From Chloroflexota bacterium (GTDB lineage: Bacteria; Chloroflexota; Limnocylindria; P2-11E), in assembly GCA_038040345.1 (NCBI GenBank), contig JBBPIQ010000002.1, positions 189,747-253,746 on the forward strand: 64,000 nt of DNA, read 5' to 3'. The stretch's first letter is position 1; the number at the start of each line of letters is the position of its first letter. The notes below the pieces were generated by a model, which saw only the letters and a list, made by a program, of their open reading frames with translations, was not told the origin of the DNA and did not search any database. Of this stretch, positions 43,697 to 59,818 are shown one piece after another. The position numbers were made by a program, and so were the translations under genes.

Positions 43697-45037
43697 ATGG
43701 ACGAGCGCTGGCGCGGGCTCACCGTGGGCCTCGTTCTCAACGTGACGTTCGTCGCGTTCGAAGCGCTCGCGATCGCGACGATCATGCCGCTCGTCGCCGA
43801 CGACCTCGGCGGCATCGAGCTGTACGGATGGGTCTTCAGCGCTTTCCTTCTCGCGAATCTCGTCGGGATCGTTGTGGCCGGCGAATTCGCCGACCGCTTT
43901 GGTCCGGCGATTCCATTCGGCGCCGGCCTCGCTCTATTCGCGCTCGGCCTTCTCATCGGTGGCCTTGCGCCATCGATGCCTGTGCTCGTGGCGGCTCGTG
44001 CGGTGCAGGGACTCGGCGCCGGCGCGATACCCGCCGTCGCTTACCTGGTGATCGGCCGCACGTATCCAGATGCGCTCCGGCCGCGCATGTTCGCGATCCT
44101 CTCGACGGCCTGGGTCGTTCCCGGCATCGCCGGCCCGGCCCTCGCCGCGTTCGTCGCGGACCACATCGGCTGGCGCTCCGTGTTCCTTGGTCTCCTGCCA
44201 CTCGTGATCGTCGCCGGATCGCTCGCGCTGCGCGAGCTGCGCACCGTTCCGGGCAATCCCGATCGCGCGGCTCGGGGCGTGCTCGTCGATGCGGTCCGCG
44301 TCGCGTCAGGAGCGGGGCTCGCGCTCGCAGGCCTTCAGGCCCGCGACATCCTCATAACGCCCGCGCTCCTCGCGATCGGACTTCTGGCCGGTCTCCCAGC
44401 GCTGCGAAAACTCCTGCCGCGCGGCACGTTCACAGCGCAGGGCCCATTGCCCGCGGCGGTGCTTTTAAAGGGGATCCTCACATTCGCATTCTTCGCGGCG
44501 GATGTGTTCGTGCCGCTCACCGTGACAACCATCCGCGGCGAGAGCGTCGTCCTCTCGGGGCTCGCGCTCACCGGCGGCACGATCGCCTGGACCACGGGCG
44601 CGTGGATCCAGGAGCGGACGGTCTTGCGCGTTGGCGAGGCTCCGCTCGTGCGGAACGGCTTTCTCCTGATCGCGATCGGGATCGCCGGGATGGGTGTCGT
44701 GCTGGCGGGCGCGGTGCCCGCGTGGCTCTGCGTCCCGGTGTGGGGCATCGCCGGTCTCGGGATCGGGATGGCATACAGCTCGATCTCGCTCACCGTGTTG
44801 CGCCACGCCCCCTCGGGCAGCGAAGGCGCGAGCGCCGCGGCGATGCAGCTCGCGGACGTTCTCGGGAACGCGCTCGGCACCGGCATCGGCGCGGTCGCGG
44901 TCGCCGCCGCGGTCGCCGGACTGGGCAGCGCTGTCGTCGGAGTTGCGATCACCGACGCCATGGCCTGCGCCGTCGCGATCGCAGGCGTGTTCGTCGCTTC
45001 AAGGCTCCGTTCGCCCGACGCCGCGCCCTCGATGTAG
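43697..45037 (+). CDS. MFS transporter
   Basis: about 12 TM helices; GEFADRFGP and LGLLIGGLAP loops; start taken at MDERWRGL. Confidence 0.7.
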   Translation: MDERWRGLTVGLVLNVTFVAFEALAIATIMPLVADDLGGIELYGWVFSAFLLANLVGIVVAGEFADRFGPAIPFGAGLALFALGLLIGGLAPSMPVLVAARAVQGLGAGAIPAVAYLVIGRTYPDALRPRMFAILSTAWVVPGIAGPALAAFVADHIGWRSVFLGLLPLVIVAGSLALRELRTVPGNPDRAARGVLVDAVRVASGAGLALAGLQARDILITPALLAIGLLAGLPALRKLLPRGTFTAQGPLPAAVLLKGILTFAFFAADVFVPLTVTTIRGESVVLSGLALTGGTIAWTTGAWIQERTVLRVGEAPLVRNGFLLIAIGIAGMGVVLAGAVPAWLCVPVWGIAGLGIGMAYSSISLTVLRHAPSGSEGASAAAMQLADVLGNALGTGIGAVAVAAAVAGLGSAVVGVAITDAMACAVAIAGVFVASRLRSPDAAPSM

Positions 45038-45583
45038 AGCCCATCGGGTAGCGACCAGGAGCAGCGCGGTGTAGCCGACGGTCGCCACGACCAAGACCGC
45101 CTTTAGATCCGAGACGTCTGCGCCTGTTTGGTCCCGCATGAACCAGATGACGGCCTGGTAGTCCGTGTACGCGCTTTCTGCTCCGCGGGGCAGCGTCTCG
45201 GGCACTTTGGCCTGAAGACCTTGCACGAGCTGGAGGATGAGATCGCCTGACCACGCGATGCCGATCGCCGATAGGAGCATCCACCGCTTCAGCCCGGCCC
45301 GCTCGCCACTTGCGAGCAAAAGAATGGCAAACCAGCAAAGCAGTTGGGTGAAGACGACCCCGCCGAAGTTGACGAGTACGTTCGCAATGTCTCCCAGTCG
45401 GGATGAGTCGTACAAGTTGCAGCCCATACAGGCGCTTTGTCCCTGCGCCTGATAGAGCACGTAATGAGCGGAATCATCGCCAAGTAGCTTCGCGAATATG
45501 GTGTGTCCGATCTCGTGGACGTTGACCATGACGAAGAGGAACGCAAGCCCGAACACAAGCCACCGGAAAAATGCCGCGATCAC
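44999..45583 (-). CDS. membrane protein with HExxH motif (putative zinc metalloprotease)
   Basis: VNVHEIGHTIFAKLLGDD within a hydrophobic 194-aa protein; convergent overlap with the MFS gene. Confidence 0.45.
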   Translation of the reverse strand: MIAAFFRWLVFGLAFLFVMVNVHEIGHTIFAKLLGDDSAHYVLYQAQGQSACMGCNLYDSSRLGDIANVLVNFGGVVFTQLLCWFAILLLASGERAGLKRWMLLSAIGIAWSGDLILQLVQGLQAKVPETLPRGAESAYTDYQAVIWFMRDQTGADVSDLKAVLVVATVGYTALLLVATRWALHRGRGVGRTEP

Positions 45584-45607
45584 GACGGGAACCCTACTCT
45601 GTGAGTT

Positions 45608-46061
45608 ATGGCCGAGATTCGTATCGTGCGCGCCGGGCGCAACGAGCTCGATGACCTCGCTCCGCTCTTCGATGGCTACCGTCAGTTCTACGGACAGCGG
45701 TCGGACCTCGCCGCCACGCGCGCGTTCCTCGGCGATCGGATCGAGCGCGACGAGTCCGTGACCTATGTGGCGTACACGGGTTCACGAGAGCCGGTCGGGC
45801 TTCACCCAGCTCTACCCATCGTTCTCGTCCGTCTCACTCAAGCGCCTCTGGATCTTGAACGACCTCTTCGTTCGCTCCGACATTCGACGTGGCGGGGTCG
45901 GGCGAGCGTTGCTCGAGCGAGCGAGGCGCCACGCGGTCGACACGGGCGCCAAGGGCCTCGTTCTCAACACTGGGGTAACGAACACGCCCGCGCAGACCTT
46001 GTACGAATCTTGCGGCTGGAAGAAGGACGACGAATTCTTCCAGTACCACCTGTTCCTCTGA
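45608..46061 (+). pseudogene. GNAT acetyltransferase with +1 frameshift
   Basis: N-terminal part in ORF 45608..46069 and C-terminal GNAT core (GVGRALLERARRHAV...GW) in ORF 45765..46061 join if one G is removed from the GGG run at about 45797-45799. Confidence 0.55.
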
Positions 46062-46091
46062 GCCGATAGCTCTTCCTCGGCCCACGGGCGC

Positions 46092-46128
46092 ACTTGACAG
46101 CTGGCCTGTAAGCCTGTAGTAAACCAAG
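46092..46128 (+). promoter_or_regulatory. sigma-70-like promoter upstream of arsR-like gene
   Basis: TTGACA, 17-nt spacer, TAGTAA in an AT-rich island. Confidence 0.35.
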
Positions 46129-46159
46129 TAGTTATTTAACCGGAAGGTACAATAGATAG

Positions 46160-46510
46160 ATGGCGACCGACCACCTCAGCGCGACGTTCGCGGCCATCGC
46201 CGACCCGACGAGGCGGGCGATCCTCGCGCGCCTGGCGTCGGGAGAGGCCTCGGTCACGGAGCTCGCGAAGCCGTTCGACATGACGCTTCCCGCGGTCTCG
46301 AAGCATCTCAAGGTGCTCGAAAACGCGGAGCTGATCTCGCGCGGACGGGACGCCCAGTGGCGCCCGGCGCGGCTCGAGGCGGCGCGTCTGCATGAGGCCG
46401 CGAAATGGATGGAGCGCTACCGGATCTTCTGGGAGCAGAGCCTCGATCGCCTCGACCAGCATCTGCGTGAACTACAAGGGGAGGACAAGAAGCATGGCCG
46501 CAAGAAATAG
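46160..46510 (+). CDS. ArsR/SmtB family transcriptional regulator
   Basis: FAAIADPTRRAILARLASGEASVTELAKPFDMTLPAVSKHLKVLENAELI wHTH. Confidence 0.8.
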   Translation: MATDHLSATFAAIADPTRRAILARLASGEASVTELAKPFDMTLPAVSKHLKVLENAELISRGRDAQWRPARLEAARLHEAAKWMERYRIFWEQSLDRLDQHLRELQGEDKKHGRKK

Positions 46511-46994
46511 CGTGAGCGCGCCGGAGCGGACCGTCGTCACGACCCGGGTCTTCGATGCGCCGCGCGAGATGGTCTACAAAGCCTGGACCGATCCGAAGCA
46601 GCTCGCGCAGTGGTTCCCGCCAAAGGACTTCACCTCGCCGCGGTGCGAGGTCGACGCGCGGCCGGGTGGCATCTTCCGCGTCGACATGAAGGGACCGGAC
46701 GGGCCGCCGTTCAACGGCGAGGTACTTCCCGGCAAGGGCATCTTCCGCGAGGTCGTGCCGAACGAACGCCTGGTATTCACGTTCGGCGGCGAGGAAGGCG
46801 CGCCGCCCCCGCCGATCCTCGTCACCGTTCTCTTCGAGGCGCAGGGCAACAAGACCAAGCTGACTATCCACCAGACCGCCGAGACGGTCGCCGAGTACGA
46901 GTCGCTCATCAAGCTTGGCGTGACCGAGGGCCTGCGACAGAGCTTCGATAAGCTGGACGAGCTCCTCGCTCGCCGTAAAGGACAAGCGCGGTGA
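46494..46994 (+). CDS. SRPBCC (AHSA1-like) family protein
   Basis: RVFDAPREMVYKAWTDPKQLAQWF...; start at internal ATG of ORF 46392..46994. Confidence 0.7.
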   Translation: MAARNSVSAPERTVVTTRVFDAPREMVYKAWTDPKQLAQWFPPKDFTSPRCEVDARPGGIFRVDMKGPDGPPFNGEVLPGKGIFREVVPNERLVFTFGGEEGAPPPPILVTVLFEAQGNKTKLTIHQTAETVAEYESLIKLGVTEGLRQSFDKLDELLARRKGQAR

Positions 46995-47128
46995 GCACGA
47001 CGAATCGAATCCTCACTTTGACCCGCGTGTTCGACGCGCCGCGGGAACTTGTATGGAAGGCCTACACCGACCCAAAGCACATCGTGAAGTGGGCGTTCTC
47101 CAGGCGTAGTCGCGTAGAGTCCGCGTAG
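46991..47128 (+). pseudogene. truncated second SRPBCC gene (N-terminal about 36 codons only)
   Basis: VSTTNRILTLTRVFDAPRELVWKAYTDPKHIVKWA, then an unrelated tail and stop. Confidence 0.4.
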
Positions 47129-47147
47129 CACGTGGGGGAGCAGACGA

Positions 47148-47540
47148 ATGGCCGCACCGAAGACCGCCGCCAAGAAGCCCGCGGCAAAGAAGACCGGCGC
47201 GGGCGTGGACGATCGCTATTTCGCTGAGCAGCCCGCCGACAAGGCGGCGTTGCTCGAGAAGCTGCGCGCCCTCGTGAACAAGGGAGTGCCCGACGCGGAC
47301 GTCTCGATCAAGTGGGGCGTGCCGTTCTACCAAATGAATGGAAAGAACATCTGCGCGCTCGCCTCATTCAAGGACCACGTCGGCATCAACTTCTTCGCGC
47401 CGCCGAGCGCGTTCGTCGATCCAGGCAAGAAGCTCGAGGGCAGCGGCAAGGGCAATCGAATGCTCAAGGTCCGCACCGCCGCCGATGTCGACAGCGCCAG
47501 CATTCTTCGTTGGCTCAAGGCGGTCGTCGCTGCGAACTAG
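47148..47540 (+). CDS. DUF1801 (YdhG-like) domain protein
   Basis: Lys-rich N-terminus; WGVPFYQMNGKNICALASFKDHVGINFF. Confidence 0.6.
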   Translation: MAAPKTAAKKPAAKKTGAGVDDRYFAEQPADKAALLEKLRALVNKGVPDADVSIKWGVPFYQMNGKNICALASFKDHVGINFFAPPSAFVDPGKKLEGSGKGNRMLKVRTAADVDSASILRWLKAVVAAN

Positions 47541-47585
47541 GACTAGGCTTCACGTAGCGACCAAACCAACTCAGGGGGAGACAAC

Positions 47586-47996
47586 ATGAACCTCAATGGC
47601 CTACTCATCGGAACAGAGAACCCGGACCGACTCAGGGACTACTACACCAAGCTCTTCGGCAAGCCCAACTGGGACGAGGGCGGCTACTTCGGATGGCAGA
47701 TCGGTAGTGGCTCGATGACCGTCGGGCCGCACGACCAGGTCAAGGGAAAGAACACCACGCCAGGTCGGCTGATCTGGAACATCACCGCGGCCGACGTCAA
47801 GGCAGAGTTCGAAAAACTGAAGGCCGCGGGCGCCACCGTCGTGAAGGAGCCCTACCAGATGGATGAGGCTCCTGGGCAGCAGATGTGGATCTCGACGTTC
47901 GCCGACCCGGACAACAACTATTTCCAGCTCATGACCCCGATGGAGATGCCGACGGAGGCTGACCGACCGGTGGCCGATATCGGAGCGCGTTCCTAA
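47586..47996 (+). CDS. VOC (glyoxalase/bleomycin-resistance fold) family protein
   Basis: 136 aa, typical small VOC architecture. Confidence 0.55.
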   Translation: MNLNGLLIGTENPDRLRDYYTKLFGKPNWDEGGYFGWQIGSGSMTVGPHDQVKGKNTTPGRLIWNITAADVKAEFEKLKAAGATVVKEPYQMDEAPGQQMWISTFADPDNNYFQLMTPMEMPTEADRPVADIGARS

Positions 47997-48011
47997 GGCC
48001 GGGCTCTTCGC

Positions 48012-48392
48012 CTAGCGGGTCTTTTCGATCTCGGCGACGCGGGCTCTTACGATCTTCGTCACGAGCCCGTACGGAAGCGGCTTGTTTGCGGGAAACTGAA
48101 GTGTGCCTTTGCTCTGCACGTAGGCCGTGAGTTCGTCGGCGTGCGCGTCGATGAACTTGCGGCTGGTGCCGTACAGGGCGGTGTGAGCCTTCCAATAGGC
48201 GAAGTACGCAACTCGTTTCCCGTCTTGCTTGAACCCCGCCATCCCGTAGCTGACGATCTCGGTCGCCTTCGGCGCGGCTGCCTTGATCGTCTGGCGCAGC
48301 TTCGTCAGTGCGGCGCGCCTGTCCTTCGGTGCGGACGCGATGTAGTCATCGACGGTCTTCGAGGGTTTCGTGGTGACCTTCCGTATCGGCAT
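48012..48392 (-). CDS. DUF1801 domain protein
   Basis: VAYFAYWKAHTALYG; real start at internal ATG of ORF 48012..48677. Confidence 0.55.
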   Translation of the reverse strand: MPIRKVTTKPSKTVDDYIASAPKDRRAALTKLRQTIKAAAPKATEIVSYGMAGFKQDGKRVAYFAYWKAHTALYGTSRKFIDAHADELTAYVQSKGTLQFPANKPLPYGLVTKIVRARVAEIEKTR

Positions 48393-48394
48393 TT

Positions 48395-48736
48395 CTAGAC
48401 CGCCGGCCCCGAGTGCTCGATCCAATACACCATTGCGAACACAACGGCGGCCGCGAAAACCTGCAGCGCGAGCACTGGGAGCGCCGCTCGTGGCGCGCGC
48501 GGGAGCCAGGTCAGCGCGAAATACCCCATCACCGCCAGTTGCACCGGCATGAGGAGCTGGAAGAGGTGCGCCTCGGTGCCCTCGTCGGCCTGGCGGACCA
48601 GCCCATTCGTGGCGACGAATCGCACACCTAGGACCAGCAGCAAAACGGGAATCGCGATCGGCAGCCAACCGCTCCAATGCGTTAGCGGTGAGGTTCGTGG
48701 ACTCGTGGTGGTCGCCATTGGCGAAATGCTACCCAC
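48395..48736 (-). CDS. small membrane protein
   Basis: 113 aa with three hydrophobic helices. Confidence 0.3.
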   Translation of the reverse strand: MGSISPMATTTSPRTSPLTHWSGWLPIAIPVLLLVLGVRFVATNGLVRQADEGTEAHLFQLLMPVQLAVMGYFALTWLPRAPRAALPVLALQVFAAAVVFAMVYWIEHSGPAV

Positions 48737-48748
48737 GACGCGACGACT

Positions 48749-49120
48749 TCATGATCCTCTGAAGCGATCGAGCTCGCGGCGCTCGCGCTTTGTCGGACGG
48801 CCGCTGCCCGGCTCTCGTACGGCTACGCGTGGCTGTCGCTTGACCACCGGCGCAGGCGGGCTGTGGTCGACCATGCACTTCGCCGCCGCCGGCGCCCCAA
48901 CGCGCTTTTCGATGATGACCACGACCTCGAGAATGCGGGGACGCCCGACGAACGCGTCGATGCGGTCGCCGACCTTCACCTGCGTCGACGCCTTGGCCGC
49001 ACCGCTGTTCACGCGCACATGGCCGCCACGGCAGGCGGCCGTCGCTTCCGACCGAGACTTATAGATCCGGACGGCCCACAGCCAGATGTCTACCCGGGTT
49101 TTTTCTGTGCCTGTGACCAT
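48749..49120 (-). CDS. S4-domain RNA-binding protein (Hsp15/HslR-like)
   Basis: RVDIWLWAVRIYKSRSEATAACRGGHVRVNSGAAKASTQVKVGDRI; basic C-terminal tail. Confidence 0.55.
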   Translation of the reverse strand: MVTGTEKTRVDIWLWAVRIYKSRSEATAACRGGHVRVNSGAAKASTQVKVGDRIDAFVGRPRILEVVVIIEKRVGAPAAAKCMVDHSPPAPVVKRQPRVAVREPGSGRPTKRERRELDRFRGS

Positions 49121-49486
49121 CAAGGCTCCGAGAGCGAACGTTAACGACTGGCACAAGCCTCGGTGCATCGCGACCGTCCCGGGCGCGGGCGACCGATTTG
49201 TCTCCGATTTCGACACCGAAGACACCTAGGCTCGTTTAGCGGCACCTCTCAGCGCATCGGACCCAAAGATAGGCCCGGTTTGTTTCCTGGGTTACGAAAT
49301 CGTCATCGGGGTGTGGCTCCGATTCGCGCATGATTCGGTTCGTGGCGCGACGTTGGTCGGTGCCACCTGCACGGCGATCTGATCGCTGACGCCAGGGGGG
49401 GCGGCGCGATCGTCTACACGGCGCAAAGAGCGTCGGAGCGCGCGGATACGACAAGACGAAGAAGATTTGAAAGAAGGCACCTCTCA

Positions 49487-50452
49487 ATGACAACGAACAT
49501 TACCCACGCGCGTCCTCGAGTTCGCGGTCCAAAATTACTGCTGACAGCTGCGGTCGCGGTCATGCTCGCGATGAGCATGCTCACGTTGGGAGGACCCACC
49601 GCGAACGCGGCGGCTCCAGGACCATCCCTTGGAATCGCTGGCAACTTCGCGATCCTCAGCGCAGCCGACGGGGGTTTGGGAGCGGTGACCTGTGTTGGCC
49701 CCGCCACGATCATCGGAAACCTGGGCTCCTCTGGCGTCCCGGCCTCGATCACTCCAGGCACGTGCACGATTACGGGGTCGCAGACCGCGCCGGTCTCGGC
49801 TGGAGTTGTAGCGGCCTTTGACAAGGCGTATGCGGCGCTTGGGCTCGTGCCGTGCACCACGACCATCCTTACTGCGGCCTACACGACCACGACGCTCTCG
49901 CTCGGGTCCGGTGTCACCTGTTTCCCGAACGGGCTGACGTTCACAGACAGCACGTTGATCCTCACCGGGAGCGGGCCCTGGCTCATCGAGGTCGGGACTC
50001 TGGCCACCGGCAACAGCGGCGCTCTCACGGGCACCAATCTCCATATGGTCCTGCCCGCTGGCGCGAACCCGTGTGACGTGACGTGGTGGGTCCGCGCGGG
50101 TGCGTCCATGACCACTTCGAACGCCACCGGCACGCAGTTCTTCGGCACGGTTCTCGCCGGGGCGGCAATCACCGTGATCGGGACGACCGTTGGAACCTTC
50201 AACGGGCGGGCTCTCGCCAAAGCCGCGGTGTCGATCACCGGCGGCACCTTCACCGGCTGCACAGGCGGAAGCCTTGGCGGCGGAGGCAAGAACAAGGACA
50301 AACACGAGGCCTGCAACCAGGGCGTAGGCAACGGGCCCGAGGACTGTGATCCGGGCAACTCGAACCAGGGCGACGACGACCGTTCGAACGACGAGAACGG
50401 CGGGACGCCTGGGCACCCTGGCCGCCAAGGCGGCAACGACAAGGACGACTAG
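49487..50452 (+). CDS. secreted DUF3494 (ice-binding-like beta-helix) family protein
   Basis: signal peptide; LGIAGNFAILSAADGGLGAVTCVGPATIIGNLGSSG motif; Thr/Gly-rich repeats; acidic Gly/Asp/Asn-rich tail. Confidence 0.65.
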   Translation: MTTNITHARPRVRGPKLLLTAAVAVMLAMSMLTLGGPTANAAAPGPSLGIAGNFAILSAADGGLGAVTCVGPATIIGNLGSSGVPASITPGTCTITGSQTAPVSAGVVAAFDKAYAALGLVPCTTTILTAAYTTTTLSLGSGVTCFPNGLTFTDSTLILTGSGPWLIEVGTLATGNSGALTGTNLHMVLPAGANPCDVTWWVRAGASMTTSNATGTQFFGTVLAGAAITVIGTTVGTFNGRALAKAAVSITGGTFTGCTGGSLGGGGKNKDKHEACNQGVGNGPEDCDPGNSNQGDDDRSNDENGGTPGHPGRQGGNDKDD

Positions 50453-50473
50453 GGCCGCACTGGCCAAGAACGA

Positions 50474-50514
50474 GGCGGAGGGACCCCTTCGGGGCCCTTC
50501 CGCCTTTTTTCTTT
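50474..50514 (+). terminator. rho-independent terminator between convergent genes
   Basis: GGCGGAGGGACCCC-TTCG-GGGCCCTTCCGCC hairpin followed by TTTTTTCTTT. Confidence 0.6.
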
Positions 50515-50524
50515 AGCTCGACTT

Positions 50525-51595
50525 CTAGAGCTCGCGATCCAGGGCGAGCAAGATCCTGCACATGCGGTCGACGCGGCGGCGTGACCAGCCGGGCTCTCGC
50601 TCATGCGTGTCGAGTCCCGGTGCGGAGTTCACCTCTAATACGGTGCACCTCTTTGGCAGCGCATCGGATGGTTGACTGAGGACTAGGTCCAGGCTGGCGA
50701 GGCGCAGGCCCATGTCGCCAACCACTCGGATAGCGAGCGCTCCTAGCTTGGGGTGCAGCACTTCAGTCACCAGCCGAACGTCACCACCCACGCCGAGATT
50801 GCCGCATGGCAGAAGCTCGACGCGTTGACCTGCGGTAGGCACCGTTTCGAGCGCCTGGCGACTGTGGGCGAGGTGCCTGCCCACCCGGACATCGTCTACG
50901 CGCAGCCGGGTCGGGTGCCCTGCTGCGCGGCTGCGTCGCTGGCCAGTCGCGATGAGCTTGCGAATACTGGAGTGGCCATCACCGAGCACGTACGGCCGCG
51001 TCTTCTCGCTCGCCATCAGGACCTCGCCGTCGAGGACGACTATCGAGCAGTCGCTGCCGCGTGCGATGCGCTGCACCAGGAGCTTCTTGGAGGCGGCGAA
51101 GACCTCACGGGCGGCCGCGTAGAACTGCGCGCGGGTATAGACGACGCACACGTGCTGGTCGCCGGAGCTGTCGTTTGGTTTGAGTAGCACTGGCAACCCG
51201 AGCCTCTGCGCGTACGCGTAGGCGCCCCCGATGCCGCGCGCCTCGTGGAGCCGCCCGTAATACGAGAAGCTGCGTCCAGTCGGGACCGTGTGGCCCAACT
51301 GCTTGAGCACACGCGCGGTGGCGTCCTTATCGAGAGCGATCGCCGCCGCACCAAGGGTGTTGAGGTCCCATTGCAGTCGGTGGAAGTAGCGCACGCGACC
51401 TGACGGAAGGGTGATCCTGCCCGAGTTGTCCGCCTTGGGTATGACCTCCAGTTTGGCACCGACGAGGTCGCAGGCCTCCTTGAGACGCGAGAGGAACGGC
51501 GTCTTCACCTCGCGATCTATGGCCGCCTGAGGCGATCGAGTTCGCGGGGCTCTCGCTTGACCACGGGCACAGGCGGGCTGTGGTCGACCAGACAC
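50525..51595 (-). CDS. ATP-grasp family ligase (RimK/GshB-like fold)
   Basis: C-terminal VLEVNSAPGL motif; alternative start about 51508; N-terminus overlaps the S4 remnant. Confidence 0.55.
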   Translation of the reverse strand: MSGRPQPACARGQARAPRTRSPQAAIDREVKTPFLSRLKEACDLVGAKLEVIPKADNSGRITLPSGRVRYFHRLQWDLNTLGAAAIALDKDATARVLKQLGHTVPTGRSFSYYGRLHEARGIGGAYAYAQRLGLPVLLKPNDSSGDQHVCVVYTRAQFYAAAREVFAASKKLLVQRIARGSDCSIVVLDGEVLMASEKTRPYVLGDGHSSIRKLIATGQRRSRAAGHPTRLRVDDVRVGRHLAHSRQALETVPTAGQRVELLPCGNLGVGGDVRLVTEVLHPKLGALAIRVVGDMGLRLASLDLVLSQPSDALPKRCTVLEVNSAPGLDTHEREPGWSRRRVDRMCRILLALDREL

Positions 51596-51720
51596 TTCGC
51601 CGCCGCACTGTTCACGCGAACCCGGCCACGGCAGGCGGCCGTCGCCTCCGAACGGGTCTTATAGATCCGGACGGCCCACAGCCAGATGTCTACCCGGGCC
51701 CTCTCGATATGGGCGTGAAA
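51517..51720 (-). pseudogene. degenerate duplicate of the S4-domain gene at 48749-49120
   Basis: about 190 bp near-identical to 48749-49110 with two in-frame internal deletions (about 54 and 117 bp) that remove the S4 core. Confidence 0.5.
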
Positions 51721-51752
51721 GGCGACGGAGCGGATTTTGTGCTCCCGTGCAT

Positions 51753-52262
51753 TCAACCATGGGGAGAGTTCTCGGAAGGCGAGCGATTTGGACTGAGCAG
51801 TCGCATGAAGATCAGGAGGCTGCTGACCAATAGGGCTGGCACATAGATGGCCACAATGACCCAATTCACGCCCAGCGAATACGTGAACACATTGTCGCGG
51901 ACCGATTGAACGATCGCGTTGACCGTATCTAGCATTCCGACGATCACGCAAAGCCAGACCAATGGGATCGCGCCACTGAAACGGGCACGGAGGGCGATGA
52001 GTGCCAGTAGTGCCAAAAATGCCGTCGCCAGGTCGCCATATCCGATCATCACCCGGAACTCCATCGGTACTCCCGCGTCGACGGAGCCGGGAGCCAGGAT
52101 CGTCCCGCCAACAACGCGAAACGCGTGGATCCAGAGCAGTGGCGCGAGGGCTACCTCCCGCGGCAACTTGGACAGGCGAGGCGCTACGTACCAGAAGCCG
52201 ATGAGCGCATATGCCGCCAGGCTCAACGTGAATTGAATTCCGAAGAGCGCGATTGGGTCCAT
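51753..52262 (-). CDS. membrane protein, 169 aa
   Basis: 4-5 predicted TM helices. Confidence 0.35.
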   Translation of the reverse strand: MDPIALFGIQFTLSLAAYALIGFWYVAPRLSKLPREVALAPLLWIHAFRVVGGTILAPGSVDAGVPMEFRVMIGYGDLATAFLALLALIALRARFSGAIPLVWLCVIVGMLDTVNAIVQSVRDNVFTYSLGVNWVIVAIYVPALLVSSLLIFMRLLSPNRSPSENSPHG

Positions 52263-52334
52263 GAATCGTCCCTCCCGTGGTCATAGTCTTCCATTCATGA
52301 ACATCTGGGATGTCGTACGCCAGAGGGTCGGAGC

Positions 52335-53231
52335 GTGATCCTCGTGACTGGCGCCACCGGCCTAAATGGTGGGGAGCTGGTGCGGAGGCTGTCGGCCCGC
52401 GGCGTCGCCGTACGTGCGCTGGTTCGCAATGCCACTGGCGCCAATGCTCCAAAAGCGGCCGAGTTGTCGCGGCTGGCCGGCGTCGAGGTTGCTGAAGCCG
52501 ATATGGCCCGTCCGCAGACTCTGGCGTCTGCGCTCAAGGGAATCGATCGAGCGATGCTCATTTCTTCCTCAGACCCGACCATGGGGGAGGTCCAGTCGGC
52601 ATTCATCGACGCGGCAGCCCTTGCTGGTGTGCGTCATGTCGTGAAGCTCTCCGGAATAATCCCCGACCTCAACTCGCCTTTCAGGTTTGCTCGCATGCAC
52701 GGCGAGATCGAGCAGCACCTGGAGGCGTCGGGGATGGCCTTCACGCATCTCCGCGCGGGCGAGTTCATGCACGCGTACTTCCGCCAGGTGCCGTCGATCG
52801 TCAACAGAGGTGCCTTGTCCTTGCCAATGGCTGACGCGCGGATCGCAGCCATAGACATCGGCGACATCGCTGACGTGGCCGCGGACGTGCTCACCGGTTC
52901 GGGACACGAAGGCAAGACGTACCCGATCACGGGTCCGGATGCGCTCACGATGACCCAAGTCGCAGCTGCGCTCTCCGCTGCGACGGGCAAGCCGATCCGC
53001 TACGTCGACGTGCCGCCCGAAGACGCCAAGGCCGCCCAGCTCGCCGCGGGCATGCCTGCGTATCTCGCAGATGGACTGGCCGAGCTCTTCGCGGAGCGTC
53101 GTAAGGGAAAAGAGGCGACCGTGTCGCCGGTGATCCAGACGATCTTCAAGCGCCGACCCTTGAGCTTCGAAGACTTCGCTCGACGCCATGCGGCGGTCTT
53201 CCGCGGCGAACAGCCGGCGCCGAGGGTCTGA
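52335..53231 (+). CDS. NmrA-like NAD(P)-binding (atypical SDR) protein
   Basis: GTG start; ILVTGATGLNGGELVRRL Rossmann motif. Confidence 0.7.
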   Translation: MILVTGATGLNGGELVRRLSARGVAVRALVRNATGANAPKAAELSRLAGVEVAEADMARPQTLASALKGIDRAMLISSSDPTMGEVQSAFIDAAALAGVRHVVKLSGIIPDLNSPFRFARMHGEIEQHLEASGMAFTHLRAGEFMHAYFRQVPSIVNRGALSLPMADARIAAIDIGDIADVAADVLTGSGHEGKTYPITGPDALTMTQVAAALSAATGKPIRYVDVPPEDAKAAQLAAGMPAYLADGLAELFAERRKGKEATVSPVIQTIFKRRPLSFEDFARRHAAVFRGEQPAPRV

Positions 53232-53504
53232 CGAGTCTCCGCGATCGCGCCGGTCGATCTAAGAGCCGCGCGTTCTCCAGTTCGCACTCGGACTTAAGAC
53301 CAGGCTCGCGGCGCGACCGAGCGGTCGTCGGTCTCGACAGGGCATAGTCGGACTGCTAGTACTACCGAGTTCGGCGTACTGCGGTCATGGGCAAGGCCGC
53401 CCGGGGTGGGGAGGAGTCATTAGGACGAACCTTCCGCAGCGTCGTGGCGGCACGCCTGCAAGACCGAGCACCGCGCTCGAACAGAGATAGAGGGGAGACA
53501 CGGA

Positions 53505-54125
53505 ATGACCGAATCGCGTATTAGCCGACGTGGGATCTTGAAGACCGCTGGGGCGCTAGGCGTTATCGGAGCGCTTTCGTCATCGGCGACCGCGCTCGCG
53601 GATGACGGCGAAGGGGGAGAAGGGGCAAGATTCCGCTGGGACATCATCAGCATCGACTTTACGACCGGCACGGTGTCGGCGGGGGGCAGCGCGTCCGCCC
53701 GCGCAAACCTCGACACGGGGATCATCACGCTCACCGGCTCGGGGACCTTCCGACCTGGCCAGCGCAAAGCGGTGACTGGCGGGGGGACCTGGTCGACGAC
53801 CGGGACCGCGGGTGTCGGCCACGGCACCTACAGGGTGACTGAGCTCGTCGAGTGGCACCTGGCCCCGGGGACGTTCCCGCTGACGATCGACGCCATCGGC
53901 GACAAAGCCGACGCTCGCGCAGGACTGGCGGTCCTTCGCGTCCGGTACTCAGACCAGAGCGAGGGGATCCTCGTGGTGAGCTGCACGATCGCTGGGACCC
54001 CGTCTTCGGTGTTTGAGGGGATCAGGACGTCCAGGGGCTTTGTCTATTACTGGAACGGCGACATCGCGGCAGACAACGTGAACCACACGCTCTTCCACTT
54101 CCTGTCAAAGGCGGAAAAGGACTAA
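53505..54125 (+). CDS. Tat-signal secreted hypothetical protein
   Basis: twin-arginine motif SRRGILKTAGALGVIGAL...A; Thr/Gly-rich. Confidence 0.5.
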   Translation: MTESRISRRGILKTAGALGVIGALSSSATALADDGEGGEGARFRWDIISIDFTTGTVSAGGSASARANLDTGIITLTGSGTFRPGQRKAVTGGGTWSTTGTAGVGHGTYRVTELVEWHLAPGTFPLTIDAIGDKADARAGLAVLRVRYSDQSEGILVVSCTIAGTPSSVFEGIRTSRGFVYYWNGDIAADNVNHTLFHFLSKAEKD

Positions 54126-54214
54126 GACCGCTGAGAGCAGAGGAAGGCGGCGCAGCGGCCGCCGCCTTCCTGACCCCGCGAGCCCTCGACACTTCGGCTA
54201 TTCAGCGCTGCCGC

Positions 54215-54793
54215 TCAAGCGCTCGAACCAAAACCAGAGGAGTCGCTCGTGTCCGGCGGCACTGGCGCTCCGTCCTTCGTTCCCGTGGAGACGAAGTTCG
54301 CCTTCAGCTCGCGCAACGGGTCAGGGCCGTTCGAGTGCCTAGCGCTCGCACCGAGCGCTGTGCGGGGTACTGCGGGCAGCGGCAACTTCGATACCAACGT
54401 CATGTATGTCACCGGGACGATCACCTCGGCTGAGGTCAACGGGCAGACCGCGGTCTTGAAGGGGTGCGGCGGTCTTGAAATTGATCGTTGTGCGTGCAGG
54501 GAGCGGCAGGAGTAGGCGCGCTTCTGGTCGATGATGATCGGCGCGTTCAGGTGCTCGATCCGCTCGACGTCGGGCTGCCCGTAGTGCGGCATGAAGCCTT
54601 GGACGAAGAAGGTGAACGTCTCGTTGAGCTGCCGCTGCGCCTCGGCGGCGATCGTGTCGAACACGAGCGAGGACTTCCCCGAGCCGGAGATGCCGGTGAA
54701 GACTGTGATCTTCTGCTTCGGGATGGACAGCGAGACGTTCTTGAGGTTTTTCTCGCGGGCGCCGTGGACCTCGATGAACGGATGGTCGGTCAT
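54215..54793 (-). pseudogene. UvrA-like ABC ATPase, N-terminal fragment only
   Basis: first about 93 codons match the UvrA N-terminus (GAREKNLKNVSLSIP, Walker A GISGSGKSSL, FDTIAAEAQRQ, IIIDQK); the remainder of the ORF is unrelated. Confidence 0.5.
54441..54480 (+). other. tRNA-Ser(UGA)-derived 5' fragment
   Basis: exact 16-nt match TGCGGCGGTCTTGAAA to the D-stem/anticodon arm of the tRNA at 56651; partial repeat CCGCGGTCTTGAA just upstream. Confidence 0.4.
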
Positions 54794-54900
54794 GCGTCGA
54801 CCCTAGAGCGCCGCGAGCATCACTTCAGGCAGCGCCGGATGCTGGCGGCGTCGAGGTCCTTCTCGCACCGCCGCTTGAGCATCCGGCGTTCTTACTCGGG

Positions 54901-55374
54901 CTAGCGGGCGTGCGCGGCCACCCAAGTGGCGAGGCTGTCGAGAGACCCGCGGGCGCCCTCCGCGGCGTAGTACTTGGCGACCTTCTCGTCTCTCTCTTCC
55001 TTGCTGCCGAAGACCAAACGGAGTGTCGCCTCGGTCGTGGCGCCGCGCTCGGCGAGCGTCAGGACGGTCTTTACCTGGTTGGGGTCGTCCTTGCCCATCC
55101 CGTACATCCAGACGATACGTTCCGGTGGGGTGATCTCTTTCCAAACGAAGTGGTTCGGGTACTCGCTGCCGTCGGGGCCGTGGATCGTCGCGTCCCAGAC
55201 ACCGCCCGGCTTGAAGTCGAACGAGTGCGTGGTGATCTCGCCGCCCTTCGGCGCACACCACTCCTCGAGGTGGGCGGCGCTGGTGAACGCGTCGAACACG
55301 AGTCGTCGTGGCCCCTCGATGATCCGCGAGACTACGATCTCGCGCTCCGCCTCAGTGCTTGTTTCGGTTGCCAT
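54901..55374 (-). CDS. SRPBCC (AHSA1-like) family protein
   Basis: RIIEGPRRLVFDAFTSAAHLEEWCAPKG... Confidence 0.7.
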   Translation of the reverse strand: MATETSTEAEREIVVSRIIEGPRRLVFDAFTSAAHLEEWCAPKGGEITTHSFDFKPGGVWDATIHGPDGSEYPNHFVWKEITPPERIVWMYGMGKDDPNQVKTVLTLAERGATTEATLRLVFGSKEERDEKVAKYYAAEGARGSLDSLATWVAAHAR

Positions 55375-55741
55375 CTGTGTGCTCCTTCTGCTGCAATTTC
55401 TTCACGTATTCGTTTAGCCTCTCGAAGTTCTCGTTCCAGTACTGCTCGAATCCGACGACCCATTCGTGGACCGGCTCAAGGCCGCGCGCGTCGAGCGCGT
55501 AGAGCCGCTGCTGTCCCGACTCGCGAACGCGCACGAGGCCGACCTCGCGCAGCACACGAAGGTGCTTCGACGTCCGGGGCTGCGTGATCCGCAGCGCTCG
55601 GGCGAGCTCGTTCACCGGGCGCTCGCGCCCCTTCAGGAGCATGAGGATCCGGCGACGCTGCGGCTCGGCCACCGCGTTGAAGGCATCGGAGGTGGTCGCG
55701 GCTCGGGCCATGTCGCTTGAAATATATGTCCATATCGGCAT
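55352..55741 (-). CDS. ArsR/SmtB family transcriptional regulator
   Basis: FNAVAEPQRRRILMLLKGRERPVNELARALRITQPRTSKHLRVLREVGLV; start at 55741 or 55711. Confidence 0.7.
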   Translation of the reverse strand: MPIWTYISSDMARAATTSDAFNAVAEPQRRRILMLLKGRERPVNELARALRITQPRTSKHLRVLREVGLVRVRESGQQRLYALDARGLEPVHEWVVGFEQYWNENFERLNEYVKKLQQKEHTDGNRNKH

Positions 55742-55848
55742 ATGTCAAGAAGCGGTGCCGGAAGATTGGCTCGCAAACATTTGATCAGCCTCGTTGTTTC
55801 GCGAGAGAGCTCTTGGGGCGATTCAGATCACCATCGCAAGCTCGGTCC

Positions 55849-56328
55849 TCAGCGCACCGCTTTCTTTACGAACGCGCCGATCCTTGCCTCTTCGGCCGCA
55901 GCCAACTCCGTCAGCGCGTAGGCGACCGGCCACATAGCGCCTTCGTCGAGGTTCGCCGCGTCGCTGAAGCCGAGCGTCGCGTATCTCGTCTTGAACTTCT
56001 GCGCGTCTTGGAAGAAGCAGACGACCTTGCCGTCTTTGGCATACGCGGGCATCCCGTACCAGAGCTTCGGAGACAGGGCTGGCGCGCTGGCTTTGACGAT
56101 CGCGTGGAGCCGCTTGCCCAGGGCGCGATCCGGTTCCCGCATCTGGGCGATCTTCGCGAGCACCGCGCTCTCCCCGTCCGCCTTGTCCGCGGCCGCCTTC
56201 AGCTCTTGGGCGCGCTCCTTCATCGCGGCTCGTTCCTCCACGGTGAATCCCTTGGACGTCTTGCCGCTCGCGGTGGTGCTCTTGGCGGACTTCTGCGCGC
56301 CCTTCTTTGCAGGTTTCCTCTGAGCCAT
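55849..56328 (-). CDS. DUF1801 domain protein with Lys-rich N-terminus
   Basis: [19 protein letters not shown]. Confidence 0.6.
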
Positions 56329-56650
56329 GGTGTCTGCTGACCTCCTGCGCGTCTGCGGCGCTGAGCCGCGGCCCCAACATTACGGAGTCTGAGCCCCGCC
56401 TCGCACTTTAGTGGGTCGCCGTCCGCGAGGATGCGATGGGTGGCATGGGAGTCGCGATGCCGCTGGTAGCGGTCGCAGTCGCACCGCACCTTTCGCCTTA
56501 TCGTCCTGCACCACGCGTTAAGCAACGCTCTTCTCGCGAGGGCCCAAGCAGCCAACGCCCGTCGGCCTTGATGATGGGCATCAGAAATGGGCATCAGTTC
56601 TCCAACCCTGGTGTCCCAAGTCTGTTCAGGAGCCCCATCATTGTTGCCTC

Positions 56651-56737
56651 GGAGGGGTGGCAGAGCGGTCGAATGCGGCGGTCTTGAAAACCGCTACGTC
56701 CTTAGGGGCGTCGTGGGTTCGAATCCCACTCCCTCCG
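56651..56737 (+). tRNA. tRNA-Ser (anticodon UGA)
   Basis: acceptor GGAGGGG/TCCCTCC, anticodon stem GCGGT/ACCGC with loop CTTGAAA, long variable arm, T-loop GTGGGTTCGAATCCCAC, discriminator G; CCA not encoded. Confidence 0.8.
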
Positions 56738-56744
56738 CAGTGTG

Positions 56745-57020
56745 CAACTGACGATGTCAACTGACATCTGTGGTCTTGCTCTTTTTGGCGCAGCCGCTCG
56801 TACGGAGTCTGACCGCCCAGGGCGCCGAGGGGCCGGTCGAAAGTGTAGAAGTCCTCCCACTCTTGAAGTTTGGTCATGAACAGCTCGCTCTGGTCGACGA
56901 CGACGCCATTGAGCTCATCCCATCGCCGGGCATCCAGGAGCCTCTGTCGCCGGAGGGTTGAGGGAGCGAGGAGTTGGGCAGCACGTTCGCGTTGGCCTTG
57001 CCGCTCGCCGGATCGGACGG
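56745..57020 (-). mobile_element. DDE transposase/integrase C-terminal remnant
   Basis: minus-strand frame reads ...LQEWEDFYTFDRPLGALGGQTPYERL, resembling the rve-core YNxxRPHxxLGGxTP motif; no N-terminal catalytic region present. Confidence 0.4.
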
Positions 57021-59763: not shown

Positions 59764-59818
59764 CTTGAAAACCGCTGAGGGTGCAAGCTCTCCGTGGGTT
59801 CGAATCCCACCCCCTCCG
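59764..59818 (+). other. partial tRNA-Ser-like sequence (anticodon loop to 3' end), att-like
   Basis: CTTGAAAACCGCT ... GTGGGTTCGAATCCCAC CCCCTCC G shares anticodon loop, T-arm and acceptor 3' strand with tRNA-Ser but has a different variable arm and no D-arm. Confidence 0.5.

What the first reader, a model, noticed from the sequence alone, without database searches (positions are those of the whole stretch)
48749..51720. DUF3494 plus ATP-grasp cassette flanked by direct repeats of an S4-domain gene
The 3' part of the S4 gene at 48749-49120 is repeated in the same orientation at about 51517-51700. The second copy carries two in-frame deletions bounded by short direct repeats and has lost the S4 core. 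Between the copies lie a secreted DUF3494 protein and a convergent ATP-grasp ligase separated by a strong terminator. This looks like insertion or duplication-mediated acquisition of a two-gene cassette.
Basis: seen in the sequence. Interest (0 to 1): 0.6.

Follow-up and report, generated by a model that had tools for sequence, protein, structure and literature searches.

The report
Decaying second copy of Hsp15-like gene
The short "repeat" is the decaying original copy of a small ribosome-associated (Hsp15-like, S4-domain) gene in front of its usual partner, an ATP-grasp ligase gene; a second, intact copy lies 2.4 kb away, so this is ordinary gene decay after a local rearrangement, not a two-gene cassette caught being acquired.

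Summary
The intact S4 gene (48749-49120, minus strand) and the segment 51517-51705 share three collinear blocks, separated by in-frame deletions of 117, 51 and 3 nt at short direct repeats.

The cassette interpretation fails. In 51 of 57 informative related loci from Candidatus Limnocylindria (Chloroflexota), an intact S4 gene sits 5-11 nt upstream of this same ATP-grasp gene, and DUF1801 usually follows. The ATP-grasp gene is therefore native, and the truncated copy is its original partner in decay.

The two copies are old lineages, not a recent duplicate (86% nt identity, dS 0.38). The remnant resembles S4 genes of other genomes as much as it resembles its neighbour.

A sister-strain contig (L163) has the same architecture. 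Its remnant carries only the 117-nt deletion, has no start codon before the S4-like part, and has a Trp-to-Ser change in a conserved motif. Decay was therefore stepwise.

Relative to the common gene order, the extra material is a DUF3494 gene module, a 105-nt fragment of a response-regulator gene, the second S4 gene and a small membrane-protein gene. None of 84 other ATP-grasp loci has a DUF3494 neighbour.

Interest is low. Two side points may merit follow-up: the conserved Hsp15-like/ATP-grasp operon, and a hypervariable DUF3494 gene body between near-identical flanks.

The parts
51753..52262 (-). 169-aa membrane protein gene (no Pfam family). It is the conserved upstream neighbour of the S4 -> ATP-grasp pair.
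   Evidence: The same gene lies directly upstream of an intact S4 gene in L102, L118, L120, L146 and L150 at 74-90% aa identity. Its TGA stop overlaps an in-frame TTG of the remnant ORF.
51517..51705 (-). Remnant of the native Hsp15-like S4 gene. It has in-frame deletions of 117, 51 and 3 nt and has lost the C-terminal third of the S4 domain. Most likely a pseudogene.
   Evidence: Repeat blocks and deletions. Pfam S4 score of 16.6 bits, below the cutoff. Flanks orthologous to L102 and L146. Sister strain L163 carries only the 117-nt deletion. Omega of 0.41 against 0.13 for the intact copy. The L163 remnant has no start codon before its S4-like part.
50525..51508 (-). Stand-alone ATP-grasp ligase gene (327 aa, GTG start). 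It resembles the G domain of cyanophycin synthetase and is the native downstream partner of S4.
   Evidence: NCBIfam cyanophycin synthetase 1.1e-36, matching model positions 208-454 of 871. PDB 7wac 1.8e-22, residues 213-462. Orthologues of 79-97% identity follow an S4 gene in 51 of 57 loci.
50466..50513 (+). Intrinsic terminator hairpin plus U-run, belonging to the DUF3494 module.
   Evidence: MFE -38.4 kcal/mol, z = -4.59, 0 of 200 shuffles as stable. Terminator scan hits. The segment is 98-100% identical in L163 and lies inside the homology to L160.
49329..50525 (+). DUF3494 / ice-binding-like gene module: upstream region, gene 49487-50452 with a signal-peptide-like N-terminus, and terminator. 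It sits next to the ATP-grasp gene only in the window, in L162 (a contig identical to the window) and in sister strain L163.
   Evidence: 81% nt identity to L160 6853-8019, which has an unrelated gene context. Homologues of 76-84% identity carry PF11999. BLASTP to the window's bona fide DUF3494 protein at 58464-59441 gives 39% identity over 82 aa, E = 3e-8. No hit in 84 other ATP-grasp loci.
49125..49229 (+). 3'-terminal fragment (about 32 codons plus stop) of an OmpR-type response-regulator gene, abutting the start of the intact S4 gene. It is a rearrangement scar.
   Evidence: 84% nt identity to the 3' end of the response-regulator gene at 57023-57763. That gene is Pfam Trans_reg_C plus Response_reg. 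L142 has a full response-regulator gene in the same divergent orientation upstream of S4.
48749..49120 (-). Intact Hsp15-like S4-domain gene (123 aa), from a different sequence lineage than the remnant (C-terminus ...ELDRFRGS).
   Evidence: Pfam S4 3.6e-11. PDB Hsp15 5z81 1e-13, aligned over residues 3-120 of 123. Closest to the L163 intact copy, L004 and L142-type genes.
48395..48736 (-). 113-aa membrane protein gene between the intact S4 gene and DUF1801. It is absent at this position in L004.
   Evidence: A 41% identical homologue lies next to DUF1801 and S4 in L010. Present in L163 at 88.6% nt. L004 goes from S4 directly to DUF1801.
48012..48380 (-). DUF1801 gene, the usual gene directly downstream of the ATP-grasp gene in relatives. 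It marks the far edge of the extra block.
   Evidence: Pfam DUF1801 6.2e-15. It follows the ATP-grasp gene in most loci. Homology to L102 stops at the ATP-grasp stop codon and resumes at DUF1801.

Best explanation
The segment 51517-51705 is the original Hsp15-like S4 gene of a conserved operon (membrane protein -> S4 -> ATP-grasp ligase) and it is now decaying as a pseudogene.

In an ancestor shared with strain L163, about 2.1 kb came to lie between the ATP-grasp gene and DUF1801. Read along the minus strand, this block holds a DUF3494 gene module on the opposite strand, a stub of a response-regulator gene, a second S4 gene of a different sequence lineage, and a small membrane-protein gene.

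With two S4 genes present, the upstream one became dispensable. It first lost 117 nt, including the beta-strand part of the S4 domain, by slippage between two GCGGCnAAG repeats. That deletion is shared with L163. In the window's lineage it then lost a further 51 nt and 3 nt, again at short direct repeats.

S4 function is supplied by the intact copy at 48749-49120. The ATP-grasp gene remains under constraint (omega 0.27, 97% aa identity to L163) and is presumably still transcribed from the old operon promoter.

Shown: the synteny, the orthology of each copy, the order of the deletions, and the relaxed constraint.
Inferred: that redundancy caused the decay, and how the second copy arrived. The likeliest route is recombination with a diverged version of the same locus. 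Ancient tandem duplication followed by reciprocal loss is the alternative.
For: 1. Synteny. S4 -> ATP-grasp -> DUF1801 is the common order in Limnocylindria loci. 51 of 57 loci with enough upstream sequence have an intact S4 gene 5-11 nt before the ATP-grasp start. The window's remnant keeps exactly this junction (TAG, 8 nt, GTG).
2. Upstream neighbour. The upstream membrane-protein gene is the same as in L102, L118, L120, L146 and L150.
3. Sequence type of the remnant. Its 3' end encodes ...ELDRLRRP*, like the ATP-grasp-linked S4 genes of L093, L101 and L133. The intact copy ends ...ELDRFRGS*, like L142 and L004 types.
4. Age of the copies. They are 86% identical over 182 nt with dS 0.38, equal to the distances between genomes.
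5. Sister strain L163. It shows the same gene order. Flanking genes are 98.6-99.5% identical. Its remnant has only the 117-nt deletion, plus a Trp-to-Ser change in the WLWA motif.
6. Pairing of copies. Nearest-neighbour bootstraps: remnant with remnant 187/200, intact with intact 178/200, the two window copies with each other 19/200.
7. Relaxed constraint between the strains. Omega is 0.41 for the remnant, against 0.13 for the intact S4 gene, 0.11 for the membrane-protein gene and 0.08 for DUF1801.
8. Start codon. The L163 remnant has no in-frame start codon before its S4-like part.
9. Domain loss. The remnant falls below the Pfam S4 threshold.
10. Not an artefact. An independent Logan contig is 100% identical across the remnant and both junctions.
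Against: All three deletions are multiples of three, and neither strain has a frameshift or a premature stop in the remnant. That is about 1 in 27 by chance if indel lengths were random, so some selection to keep the frame open cannot be excluded.

An omega of 0.41 rests on only 13 substitutions and is not clearly 1.

The two window copies share a perfectly identical 41-nt tract (49058-49098 = 51658-51698). This hints at gene conversion and complicates lineage assignment.

The direction of the rearrangement is inferred from the majority gene order, not from a rooted genome phylogeny.

Six loci, which may represent only about three genomes, have the ATP-grasp gene with no S4 gene upstream. The pairing is therefore not obligatory.
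Confidence: 0.75

Rival explanations
1. One reading: a two-gene DUF3494 + ATP-grasp cassette was inserted into, or acquired by duplication of, an S4 gene, leaving S4 sequence as flanking direct repeats.
For: The two genes do lie between two S4-derived sequences in direct orientation. The DUF3494 module does occur in unrelated contexts elsewhere, so that part is mobile in an evolutionary sense.
Against: - The ATP-grasp gene is linked to S4 in 51 of 57 related loci without any DUF3494 gene.
- There is no DUF3494 hit in 84 other ATP-grasp loci.
- The repeats are 14% diverged (dS 0.38), and each has its own orthologue in L163. They are therefore not a duplication made by the insertion.
- No integrase, transposase, inverted repeats or att-like sites bound the pair.
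- The ATP-grasp gene and the remnant are collinear with their orthologues in L102 and L146.
Confidence: 0.04
2. The truncated ORF is kept open on purpose. Either it makes a small functional protein (the N-terminal helices of S4 plus the basic C-terminal tail), or its translation up to the native stop is needed to couple translation into the ATP-grasp gene, whose start lies 8 nt downstream with no well-spaced Shine-Dalgarno sequence.
For: - All three deletions (117, 51, 3 nt) are in frame, and there is no internal stop in either strain.
- The gap from S4 stop to ATP-grasp start is 5-11 nt in 51 loci, typical of coupled genes.
- In the window, an in-frame TTG overlaps the stop codon of the upstream gene as TTGA.
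- Omega is 0.41, not 1.
Against: - In L163 a 1-nt difference puts that TTG out of frame, and no start codon precedes the S4-like part.
- L163 has a Trp-to-Ser change in the most conserved S4 motif.
- Omega is three to four times that of the intact copy.
- The closest ATP-grasp orthologues (L081-083, L091-092) work without any upstream S4 ORF.
- Long open frames are common by chance at 65% G+C.
Confidence: 0.15
3. Origin variant: the two S4 copies descend from an old tandem duplication of the whole S4 - ATP-grasp - DUF1801 unit within this lineage. Reciprocal losses followed (the first DUF1801, the second ATP-grasp, and now the first S4 gene). In this view nothing was imported from another lineage.
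For: - Permuted orders exist elsewhere: ATP-grasp -> S4 directly in L121, and ATP-grasp -> opposite-strand GGDEF gene -> S4 in L003.
- Some MAGs carry two S4 copies: L006/L007 at 94% identity and L010/L013 at 89%.
- DUF1801 genes are multi-copy in these loci.
Against: - No relic of a second ATP-grasp gene or a second DUF1801 gene is detectable in the block.
- The two copies belong to sequence types that are each ATP-grasp-linked single copies in other genomes. That fits mixing of alleles from different lineages better.
- The response-regulator stub and the DUF3494 module need extra events in either model.
Confidence: 0.3
4. Assembly artefact: the two S4 copies come from two co-assembled strains wrongly joined in a metagenome-assembled contig.
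For: The source is evidently a MAG, because the identical DUF3494 protein P0001 is annotated on a 374-kb MAG contig. Related MAG contigs also break at S4 genes (L004, L006, L007).
Against: - The Logan contig L162 reproduces 50120-51687 at 100% identity.
- JGI contig L163, from another sample, carries the whole architecture on one 4.8-kb contig with its own sequence differences.
- A chimeric join would switch strains at the repeat. It would not produce two copies 2.6 kb apart.
Confidence: 0.02

Closest known systems
Hsp15 / HslR (E. coli; PDB 1DM9, 5Z81) and its Gram-positive relative RqcP/YabO: small S4-domain proteins that bind the 50S ribosomal subunit
   Same: The intact copy aligns over residues 3-120 of its 123 residues with Hsp15 (5z81 1e-13; 1dm9 3.9e-9). 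It has the S4 domain (Pfam 43.1 bits) and the basic C-terminal tail.
   Different: It scores only 36 bits against a cutoff of 148 on the NCBIfam Hsp15 equivalog, so it is Hsp15-like rather than a demonstrated orthologue. Here it is the first gene of an operon with an ATP-grasp ligase. No paper in the searched library mentions both Hsp15 and ATP-grasp. The second copy is a truncated relic.
Cyanophycin synthetase CphA1, G (ATP-grasp) domain
   Same: Residues 51-302 align with CphA1 residues 213-462 (7wac 1.8e-22; NCBIfam PRK14016 1.1e-36).
   Different: [quoted passage not shown] Its score of 126 bits is far below the cutoff of 877. The CphA1 N domain is M16-peptidase-like, not S4-like (PMC9262961), so the S4 + ATP-grasp pair is not a split CphA1. 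The substrate is unknown.
DUF3494 / ice-binding-like family (Pfam PF11999)
   Same: Homologues of 76-84% identity, and the L163 allele, carry PF11999. There is local similarity to the window's own PF11999 protein at 58464-59441 (E = 3e-8). The N-terminus looks like a signal peptide.
   Different: The window protein itself gives no Pfam hit, even at E<=10. It has a Gly/Asp/Asn-rich C-terminal tail instead of the membrane anchor seen at 58464-59441. Its central domain is only 59% identical to the allele at the same site in the sister strain.
Pseudogene erosion by slipped-strand deletion between short direct repeats after gene redundancy, a general and well-described process in bacterial genomes (my own knowledge, no specific citation)
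   Same: The deletions lie at 9-16 nt imperfect direct repeats. One of two redundant copies is lost stepwise. Constraint on that copy is relaxed.
   Different: Nothing essential. The only unusual feature is that all three deletions preserve the reading frame.

Membership tests
S4 RNA-binding domain (Pfam PF01479), intact copy 48749-49120 | Score above the Pfam gathering threshold across the 48-position domain | tested here: met
   43.1 bits against a cutoff of 22.8, profile positions 2-48 of 48.
S4 RNA-binding domain (Pfam PF01479), remnant 51517-51756 | Score above the Pfam gathering threshold across the 48-position domain | tested here: not met
   16.6 bits against a cutoff of 22.8. Only profile positions 2-31 remain, because the 117-nt deletion removes the rest.
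Hsp15 / HslR equivalog (NCBIfam NF007673) | Whole-protein score above the curated cutoff | tested here: not met
   36 bits against a cutoff of 148. It is nevertheless homologous to Hsp15 structures over residues 3-120 of 123 (5z81 1e-13). It is therefore Hsp15-like and its function is not shown.
Cyanophycin synthetase (CphA1; NCBIfam PRK14016 / TIGR02068) | Three-domain N-G-M architecture of about 870 aa and a score above the cutoff | tested here: not met
   Only the G-domain region matches (model positions 208-454 of 871). The score is 126 bits against a cutoff of 877, and the protein is 327 aa.
RimK-type alpha-L-glutamate ligases | A match to TIGR00768 / PF08443 above the cutoff | tested here: not met
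   TIGR00768 scores 16.5 against 143.4. PF08443 scores 19.1 against 21 and matches only a C-terminal piece.
Graspetide (microviridin-type) ATP-grasp maturases | A match to the dedicated maturase models and an adjacent precursor-peptide gene | tested here: not met
   No such model is among the 21 NCBIfam hits at E<=0.01. The adjacent genes are S4 and DUF1801 in 51 loci, and no short precursor ORF is conserved. A dedicated graspetide HMM library was not available.
DUF3494 / ice-binding-like (PF11999) | A match to PF11999 above the gathering score | tested here: inconclusive
   The window protein has no hit, even at E<=10. Most of its 120 best homologues (from 84% identity down) carry PF11999, as does the L163 allele. 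BLASTP to the in-window PF11999 protein gives E = 3e-8. It is a member by homology but falls below the HMM's detection.
Mobile gene cassette, transposon or island flanked by a duplication made on insertion | Near-identical flanking repeats created by the event, a recombinase or att/IR ends, and the cargo moving together in other genomes | tested here: not met
   The flanking S4 copies are 86% identical with dS 0.38. No recombinase gene and no terminal repeats are present. DUF3494 and ATP-grasp never co-occur in 84 other loci.
Pseudogene (decaying redundant copy) | Loss of an essential domain, an intact orthologue in relatives, an intact paralogue in the same genome, relaxed constraint, and further lesions accumulating in sister lineages | tested here: met
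   Domain loss. Intact orthologues in 51 loci. Intact copy 2.4 kb away. Omega 0.41 against 0.13. Different lesion sets in the window and L163. Caveat: there is no frameshift or stop codon.

The most novel reading that the evidence does not exclude
The Hsp15-like S4 protein and the stand-alone CphA-G-domain-like ATP-grasp ligase may form a functional two-gene module in Limnocylindria, for example a ligase acting on a ribosome-associated or nascent-chain-related substrate, or one regulated by the S4 protein. Selection would then keep one S4 gene near the ligase through repeated rearrangements. The order is S4 -> ligase with a 5-11 nt gap in 51 of 57 loci, ligase -> S4 in L121 and L003, and in the window an intact S4 gene stays 1.4 kb from the ligase while the old copy decays. 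A weaker add-on is that the in-frame decay of the old copy reflects translational coupling into the ligase gene.
Probability: 0.15. Interest if true: 0.5.

Novelty: new member of a known kind. Interest (0 to 1): 0.22.

Why it matters
For genome annotation, the 79-codon ORF should be marked as an S4 pseudogene, and the 356-aa GTG-extended ORF should not be taken as the ATP-grasp gene. The DUF3494 and ATP-grasp genes should not be read as a functional pair.

More generally, the locus is a clean example of how a conserved operon is remodelled in uncultured soil Chloroflexota. A second gene copy arrives, and the original erodes stepwise by slippage deletions. Two natural strains have frozen successive stages of that erosion.

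The only parts with possible wider interest are by-products of this work. One is an uncharacterised, tightly spaced Hsp15-like/ATP-grasp operon that is widespread in Limnocylindria. The other is a secreted DUF3494 protein whose central domain is swapped between strains that are about 99% identical in the flanking DNA.

Tried and rejected
1. Recent duplication. Rejected: the copies are 86% identical with dS 0.38, and each pairs with its own L163 counterpart.

2. DUF3494/ATP-grasp co-occurrence. Rejected: 0 of 84 other ATP-grasp loci have a DUF3494 neighbour. DUF3494 homologues sit in unrelated contexts or in tandem DUF3494 pairs.

3. S4 + ATP-grasp as a split cyanophycin synthetase (S4 standing in for the CphA1 N domain). 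Rejected: the N domain is M16-peptidase-like (PMC9262961), and S4 does not hit CphA1 in the PDB search.

4. RNA element in the region. None found: Rfam reports only two tRNA-Ser genes in the whole window.

5. Diversity-generating retroelement as the cause of DUF3494 variability. No template-like repeat of the gene exists in the window's self-comparison. The variation includes many indels over the whole domain.

6. Sigma-70 promoter scan of 48300-52400. It gave 0 sites and was uninformative.

7. Exact-sequence look-ups that found nothing: the DUF3494 protein, P0004, and both possible S4 protein versions.

8. Literature search for Hsp15 together with ATP-grasp. It returned 0 papers.

9. First coordinate guesses. 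The range 51517-51757 had the wrong length. The ATP-grasp start I first used (51502) was two codons short and was corrected to the GTG at 51508.

Full report
**1. Observation**

The window is high-G+C DNA (67%). Its closest relatives are MAGs of Candidatus Limnocylindria, Chloroflexota.

On the minus strand, 48749-49120 encodes a 123-aa protein with an S4 domain (Pfam 43.1 bits). It is homologous to Hsp15 over residues 3-120 of its 123 residues (PDB 5z81 1e-13).

A second, shorter S4-like sequence lies at 51517-51705 in the same orientation. The repeat finder gives three collinear blocks:

| First copy | Second copy | Identity | Length |
|---|---|---|---|
| 49025-49098 | 51625-51698 | 95% | 74 nt |
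| 48826-48889 | 51543-51606 | 91% | 64 nt |
| 48759-48790 | 51527-51558 | 88% | 32 nt |

- The changing offsets (2600, 2717, 2768) mean deletions of 117 and 51 nt in the second copy. There is also a 3-nt deletion in a GGCGGC run.
- The match is far beyond chance: blastn E = 1.8e-26 and 5e-17, and a 36-nt core is found twice against 0 expected.
- Both large deletions are bounded by short imperfect direct repeats, GCGGC(C/G)AAG and AAGCGnnAGCnnCGCG.
- The remnant keeps only positions 2-31 of the 48-position S4 profile and falls below threshold (16.6 against 22.8 bits).
- Between the copies are a DUF3494-type gene (49487-50452, plus strand) and a convergent ATP-grasp gene. A strong hairpin separates them (-38.4 kcal/mol, z = -4.6, then a U-run).

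The description is therefore correct, with small corrections. The copy keeps 5', middle and 3' pieces. There are three in-frame deletions. The ATP-grasp gene starts at the GTG at 51508, 8 nt after the remnant's stop.

**2. What relatives show**

I fetched 80 genomic loci with the S4 protein and 79 metagenomic loci with the ATP-grasp protein, then mapped the window's neighbouring genes onto them.

- The dominant order is [variable upstream gene] S4 -> ATP-grasp -> DUF1801 -> opposite-strand glyoxalase-family gene (homologue of window 47586-47996).
- Of 57 loci with enough upstream sequence, 51 have an intact S4 gene whose stop lies 5-11 nt (mode 8-9) before the ATP-grasp start.
- In five of them (L102, L118, L120, L146, L150) the gene upstream of S4 is the same 169-aa membrane-protein gene that precedes the remnant in the window.
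- Nucleotide homology to L102 and L146 runs through the membrane-protein gene, the remnant and the ATP-grasp gene. It stops at the ATP-grasp stop codon and resumes at DUF1801.
- The remnant therefore occupies the native S4 position, and the ATP-grasp gene is its native partner.
- No DUF3494 gene is found in any of these 84 ATP-grasp loci.

Relative to the common order, the extra material is 48381-50524. It contains:
- a DUF3494 module, 49329-50525, which is 81% identical to L160, a locus with an unrelated context;
- 99 nt of unknown origin;
- a 105-nt 3' fragment of an OmpR-type response-regulator gene, 49125-49229, which is 84% identical to the end of the gene at 57023-57763;
- the intact S4 gene;
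- a 113-aa membrane-protein gene.

**3. The two copies are old, distinct lineages**

- Over the 182 alignable nt the two window copies are 86% identical. The remnant is 84-88% identical to S4 genes of other genomes.
- dS between the copies is 0.38, the same range as between genomes (0.30-0.54).
- The remnant ends ...ELDRLRRP*, like the ATP-grasp-linked S4 genes of L093, L101 and L133. The intact copy ends ...ELDRFRGS*, like L142 and L004 types. Both types are single, ATP-grasp-linked genes in other genomes.
- L142 has a complete response-regulator gene in the same divergent orientation upstream of that S4 type. This fits the response-regulator stub that abuts the intact copy.
- A 41-nt tract (49058-49098 = 51658-51698) is perfectly identical between the copies. 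It may be a small conversion patch.

**4. A sister strain fixes the order of events**

The closest ATP-grasp homologue (P0121, 97% aa) lies on JGI contig L163. That contig has the same architecture: membrane-protein gene, uncalled gap, ATP-grasp, opposite-strand Ice_binding gene, S4, 107-aa gene, DUF1801, opposite-strand glyoxalase gene.

- The two sequences align end to end. Flanking genes are 98.6-99.5% identical.
- The L163 remnant has the same 117-nt deletion but keeps the 51 nt and the 3 nt. It carries its own changes, including Trp-to-Ser in the conserved WLWA motif.
- It also has a 1-nt difference that leaves no in-frame start codon before the S4-like part.
- Nearest-neighbour bootstraps pair remnant with remnant (187/200) and intact with intact (178/200). 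The two window copies pair in only 19/200.
- Between the strains, omega is 0.41 for the remnant, against 0.13 for the intact S4 gene, 0.11 for the membrane-protein gene, 0.10 for the 113-aa gene and 0.08 for DUF1801.

The two-copy state therefore predates the strain split. The core-destroying deletion came first, and erosion continued independently afterwards.

An independent Logan contig (L162) is 100% identical to window 50120-51687. Together with L163, this rules out an assembly artefact.

**5. Mechanism**

The best-supported reading is redundancy followed by pseudogene decay through slipped-strand deletions. The intact copy supplies S4 function, and the ATP-grasp gene is still expressed from the old operon.

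How the second copy arrived is inferred.
- I favour recombination with a diverged version of the same locus, because the two copies belong to types that are alternative single copies elsewhere.
- An old tandem duplication of the unit with reciprocal loss remains possible. Permuted orders exist in L121 (ATP-grasp -> S4) and L003 (ATP-grasp, opposite-strand GGDEF gene, S4). Some MAGs also hold two S4 copies.

The one feature not fully explained by neutrality is that all three deletions are in frame and no stop has appeared. Given the 8-nt stop-to-start spacing, selection for translational coupling into the ATP-grasp gene is conceivable. L163's loss of the upstream start, and the S4-less ATP-grasp loci (L081-083, L091-092), argue against it.

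**6. Comparison with known families**

- The S4 protein is Hsp15-like but scores below the NCBIfam equivalog cutoff (36 against 148).
- The ligase matches only the G domain of cyanophycin synthetase (126 bits against 877; 7wac residues 213-462). It is not a RimK-type ligase, and no graspetide maturase model is among its NCBIfam hits at E<=0.01.
- The idea that S4 + ligase is a split CphA1 fails, because the CphA1 N domain is M16-peptidase-like (PMC9262961).
- The DUF3494 assignment holds through homologues, although the protein itself escapes the Pfam HMM.
- Nothing defines a mobile cassette. There is no recombinase, there are no terminal repeats, and the cargo does not travel together.

**7. 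Verdict**

This is a real feature with an ordinary explanation: a decaying native gene copy beside a second copy after a local rearrangement.

Novelty is a new example of a known process. Interest is low (0.22). The conserved Hsp15-like/ATP-grasp operon and the hypervariable DUF3494 allele are the leads worth keeping.

Noticed in passing
window 49487-50330 compared with L163 1800-2635: The body of the DUF3494 gene is only about 55-70% identical in nt (59% aa, many in-frame indels, omega 0.70) between the window and sister strain L163. The upstream 240 nt, the C-terminal tail and the terminator are 92-100% identical. The window allele is closer (84% aa) to proteins in unrelated contexts (P0002, P0005). 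This looks like replacement of the central beta-solenoid domain by recombination among alleles or paralogues, or like strong diversifying selection.
   Followed up: partly
window 56712-56740 and 59793-59821: A 29-nt direct repeat of the 3' end of tRNA-Ser(TGA) (28 of 29 identical) brackets about 3.1 kb. That stretch holds a transposase/integrase-like C-terminal fragment ORF (56638-56877, no Pfam hit), the full OmpR-type response-regulator gene (57023-57763), a 189-aa gene and a bona fide anchored DUF3494 gene (58464-59441, PF11999 1.5e-53). It looks like the relic of an element integrated at the tRNA. The response-regulator stub beside a DUF3494 gene at 49125-50452 may derive from a related unit.
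   Followed up: partly
51 related loci (L001, L002, L005, L084-L153); window junction 51508-51519: The gap from the S4 stop to the ATP-grasp start is only 5-11 nt (mode 8-9) in 51 of 57 informative Limnocylindria loci. This is an uncharacterised, tightly spaced Hsp15-like/ATP-grasp operon. No paper in the searched library mentions both terms.
   Followed up: partly
window 49058-49098 and 51658-51698: A 41-nt tract is perfectly identical between the two otherwise 14% diverged S4 copies. In L163 the two copies differ at about 5 positions in the same tract. It may be a short gene-conversion patch in the window's lineage.
   Followed up: partly
L163 2960-3010 compared with window 49100-49180: The junction between the response-regulator stub and the start of the intact S4 gene differs between the strains (50% identity over 60 nt). 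L163 has a shorter stub and an S4 5' leader that resembles the leader of the other S4 type (L146-like). The junction has therefore been remodelled again since the strains split.
   Followed up: no
window 63726-63959 (minus strand), next to tRNA-Ser(GCT) at 63620-63713: A 77-aa ORF next to the second tRNA-Ser gene looks like the C-terminus of an IS481-type transposase. That is my own reading of the sequence, and there is no Pfam hit.
   Followed up: no
window 44900-56900: This stretch has lower G+C (0.60-0.67) than the DNA just upstream of it (0.70 at 44000-45200). It is packed with small accessory genes that recur in several paralogous copies in related loci: ArsR, SRPBCC, DUF1801 at least twice, glyoxalase and NmrA. 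It appears to be a rearrangement-prone accessory region.
   Followed up: no
L004 (DASPWX010000206.1): The contig carrying the closest relative of the intact S4 gene (92% aa) is labelled Candidatus Bathyarchaeia, yet it is collinear with this Chloroflexota locus at 77-87% nt identity. It is probably mis-binned. The contig also starts inside the S4 gene.
   Followed up: no
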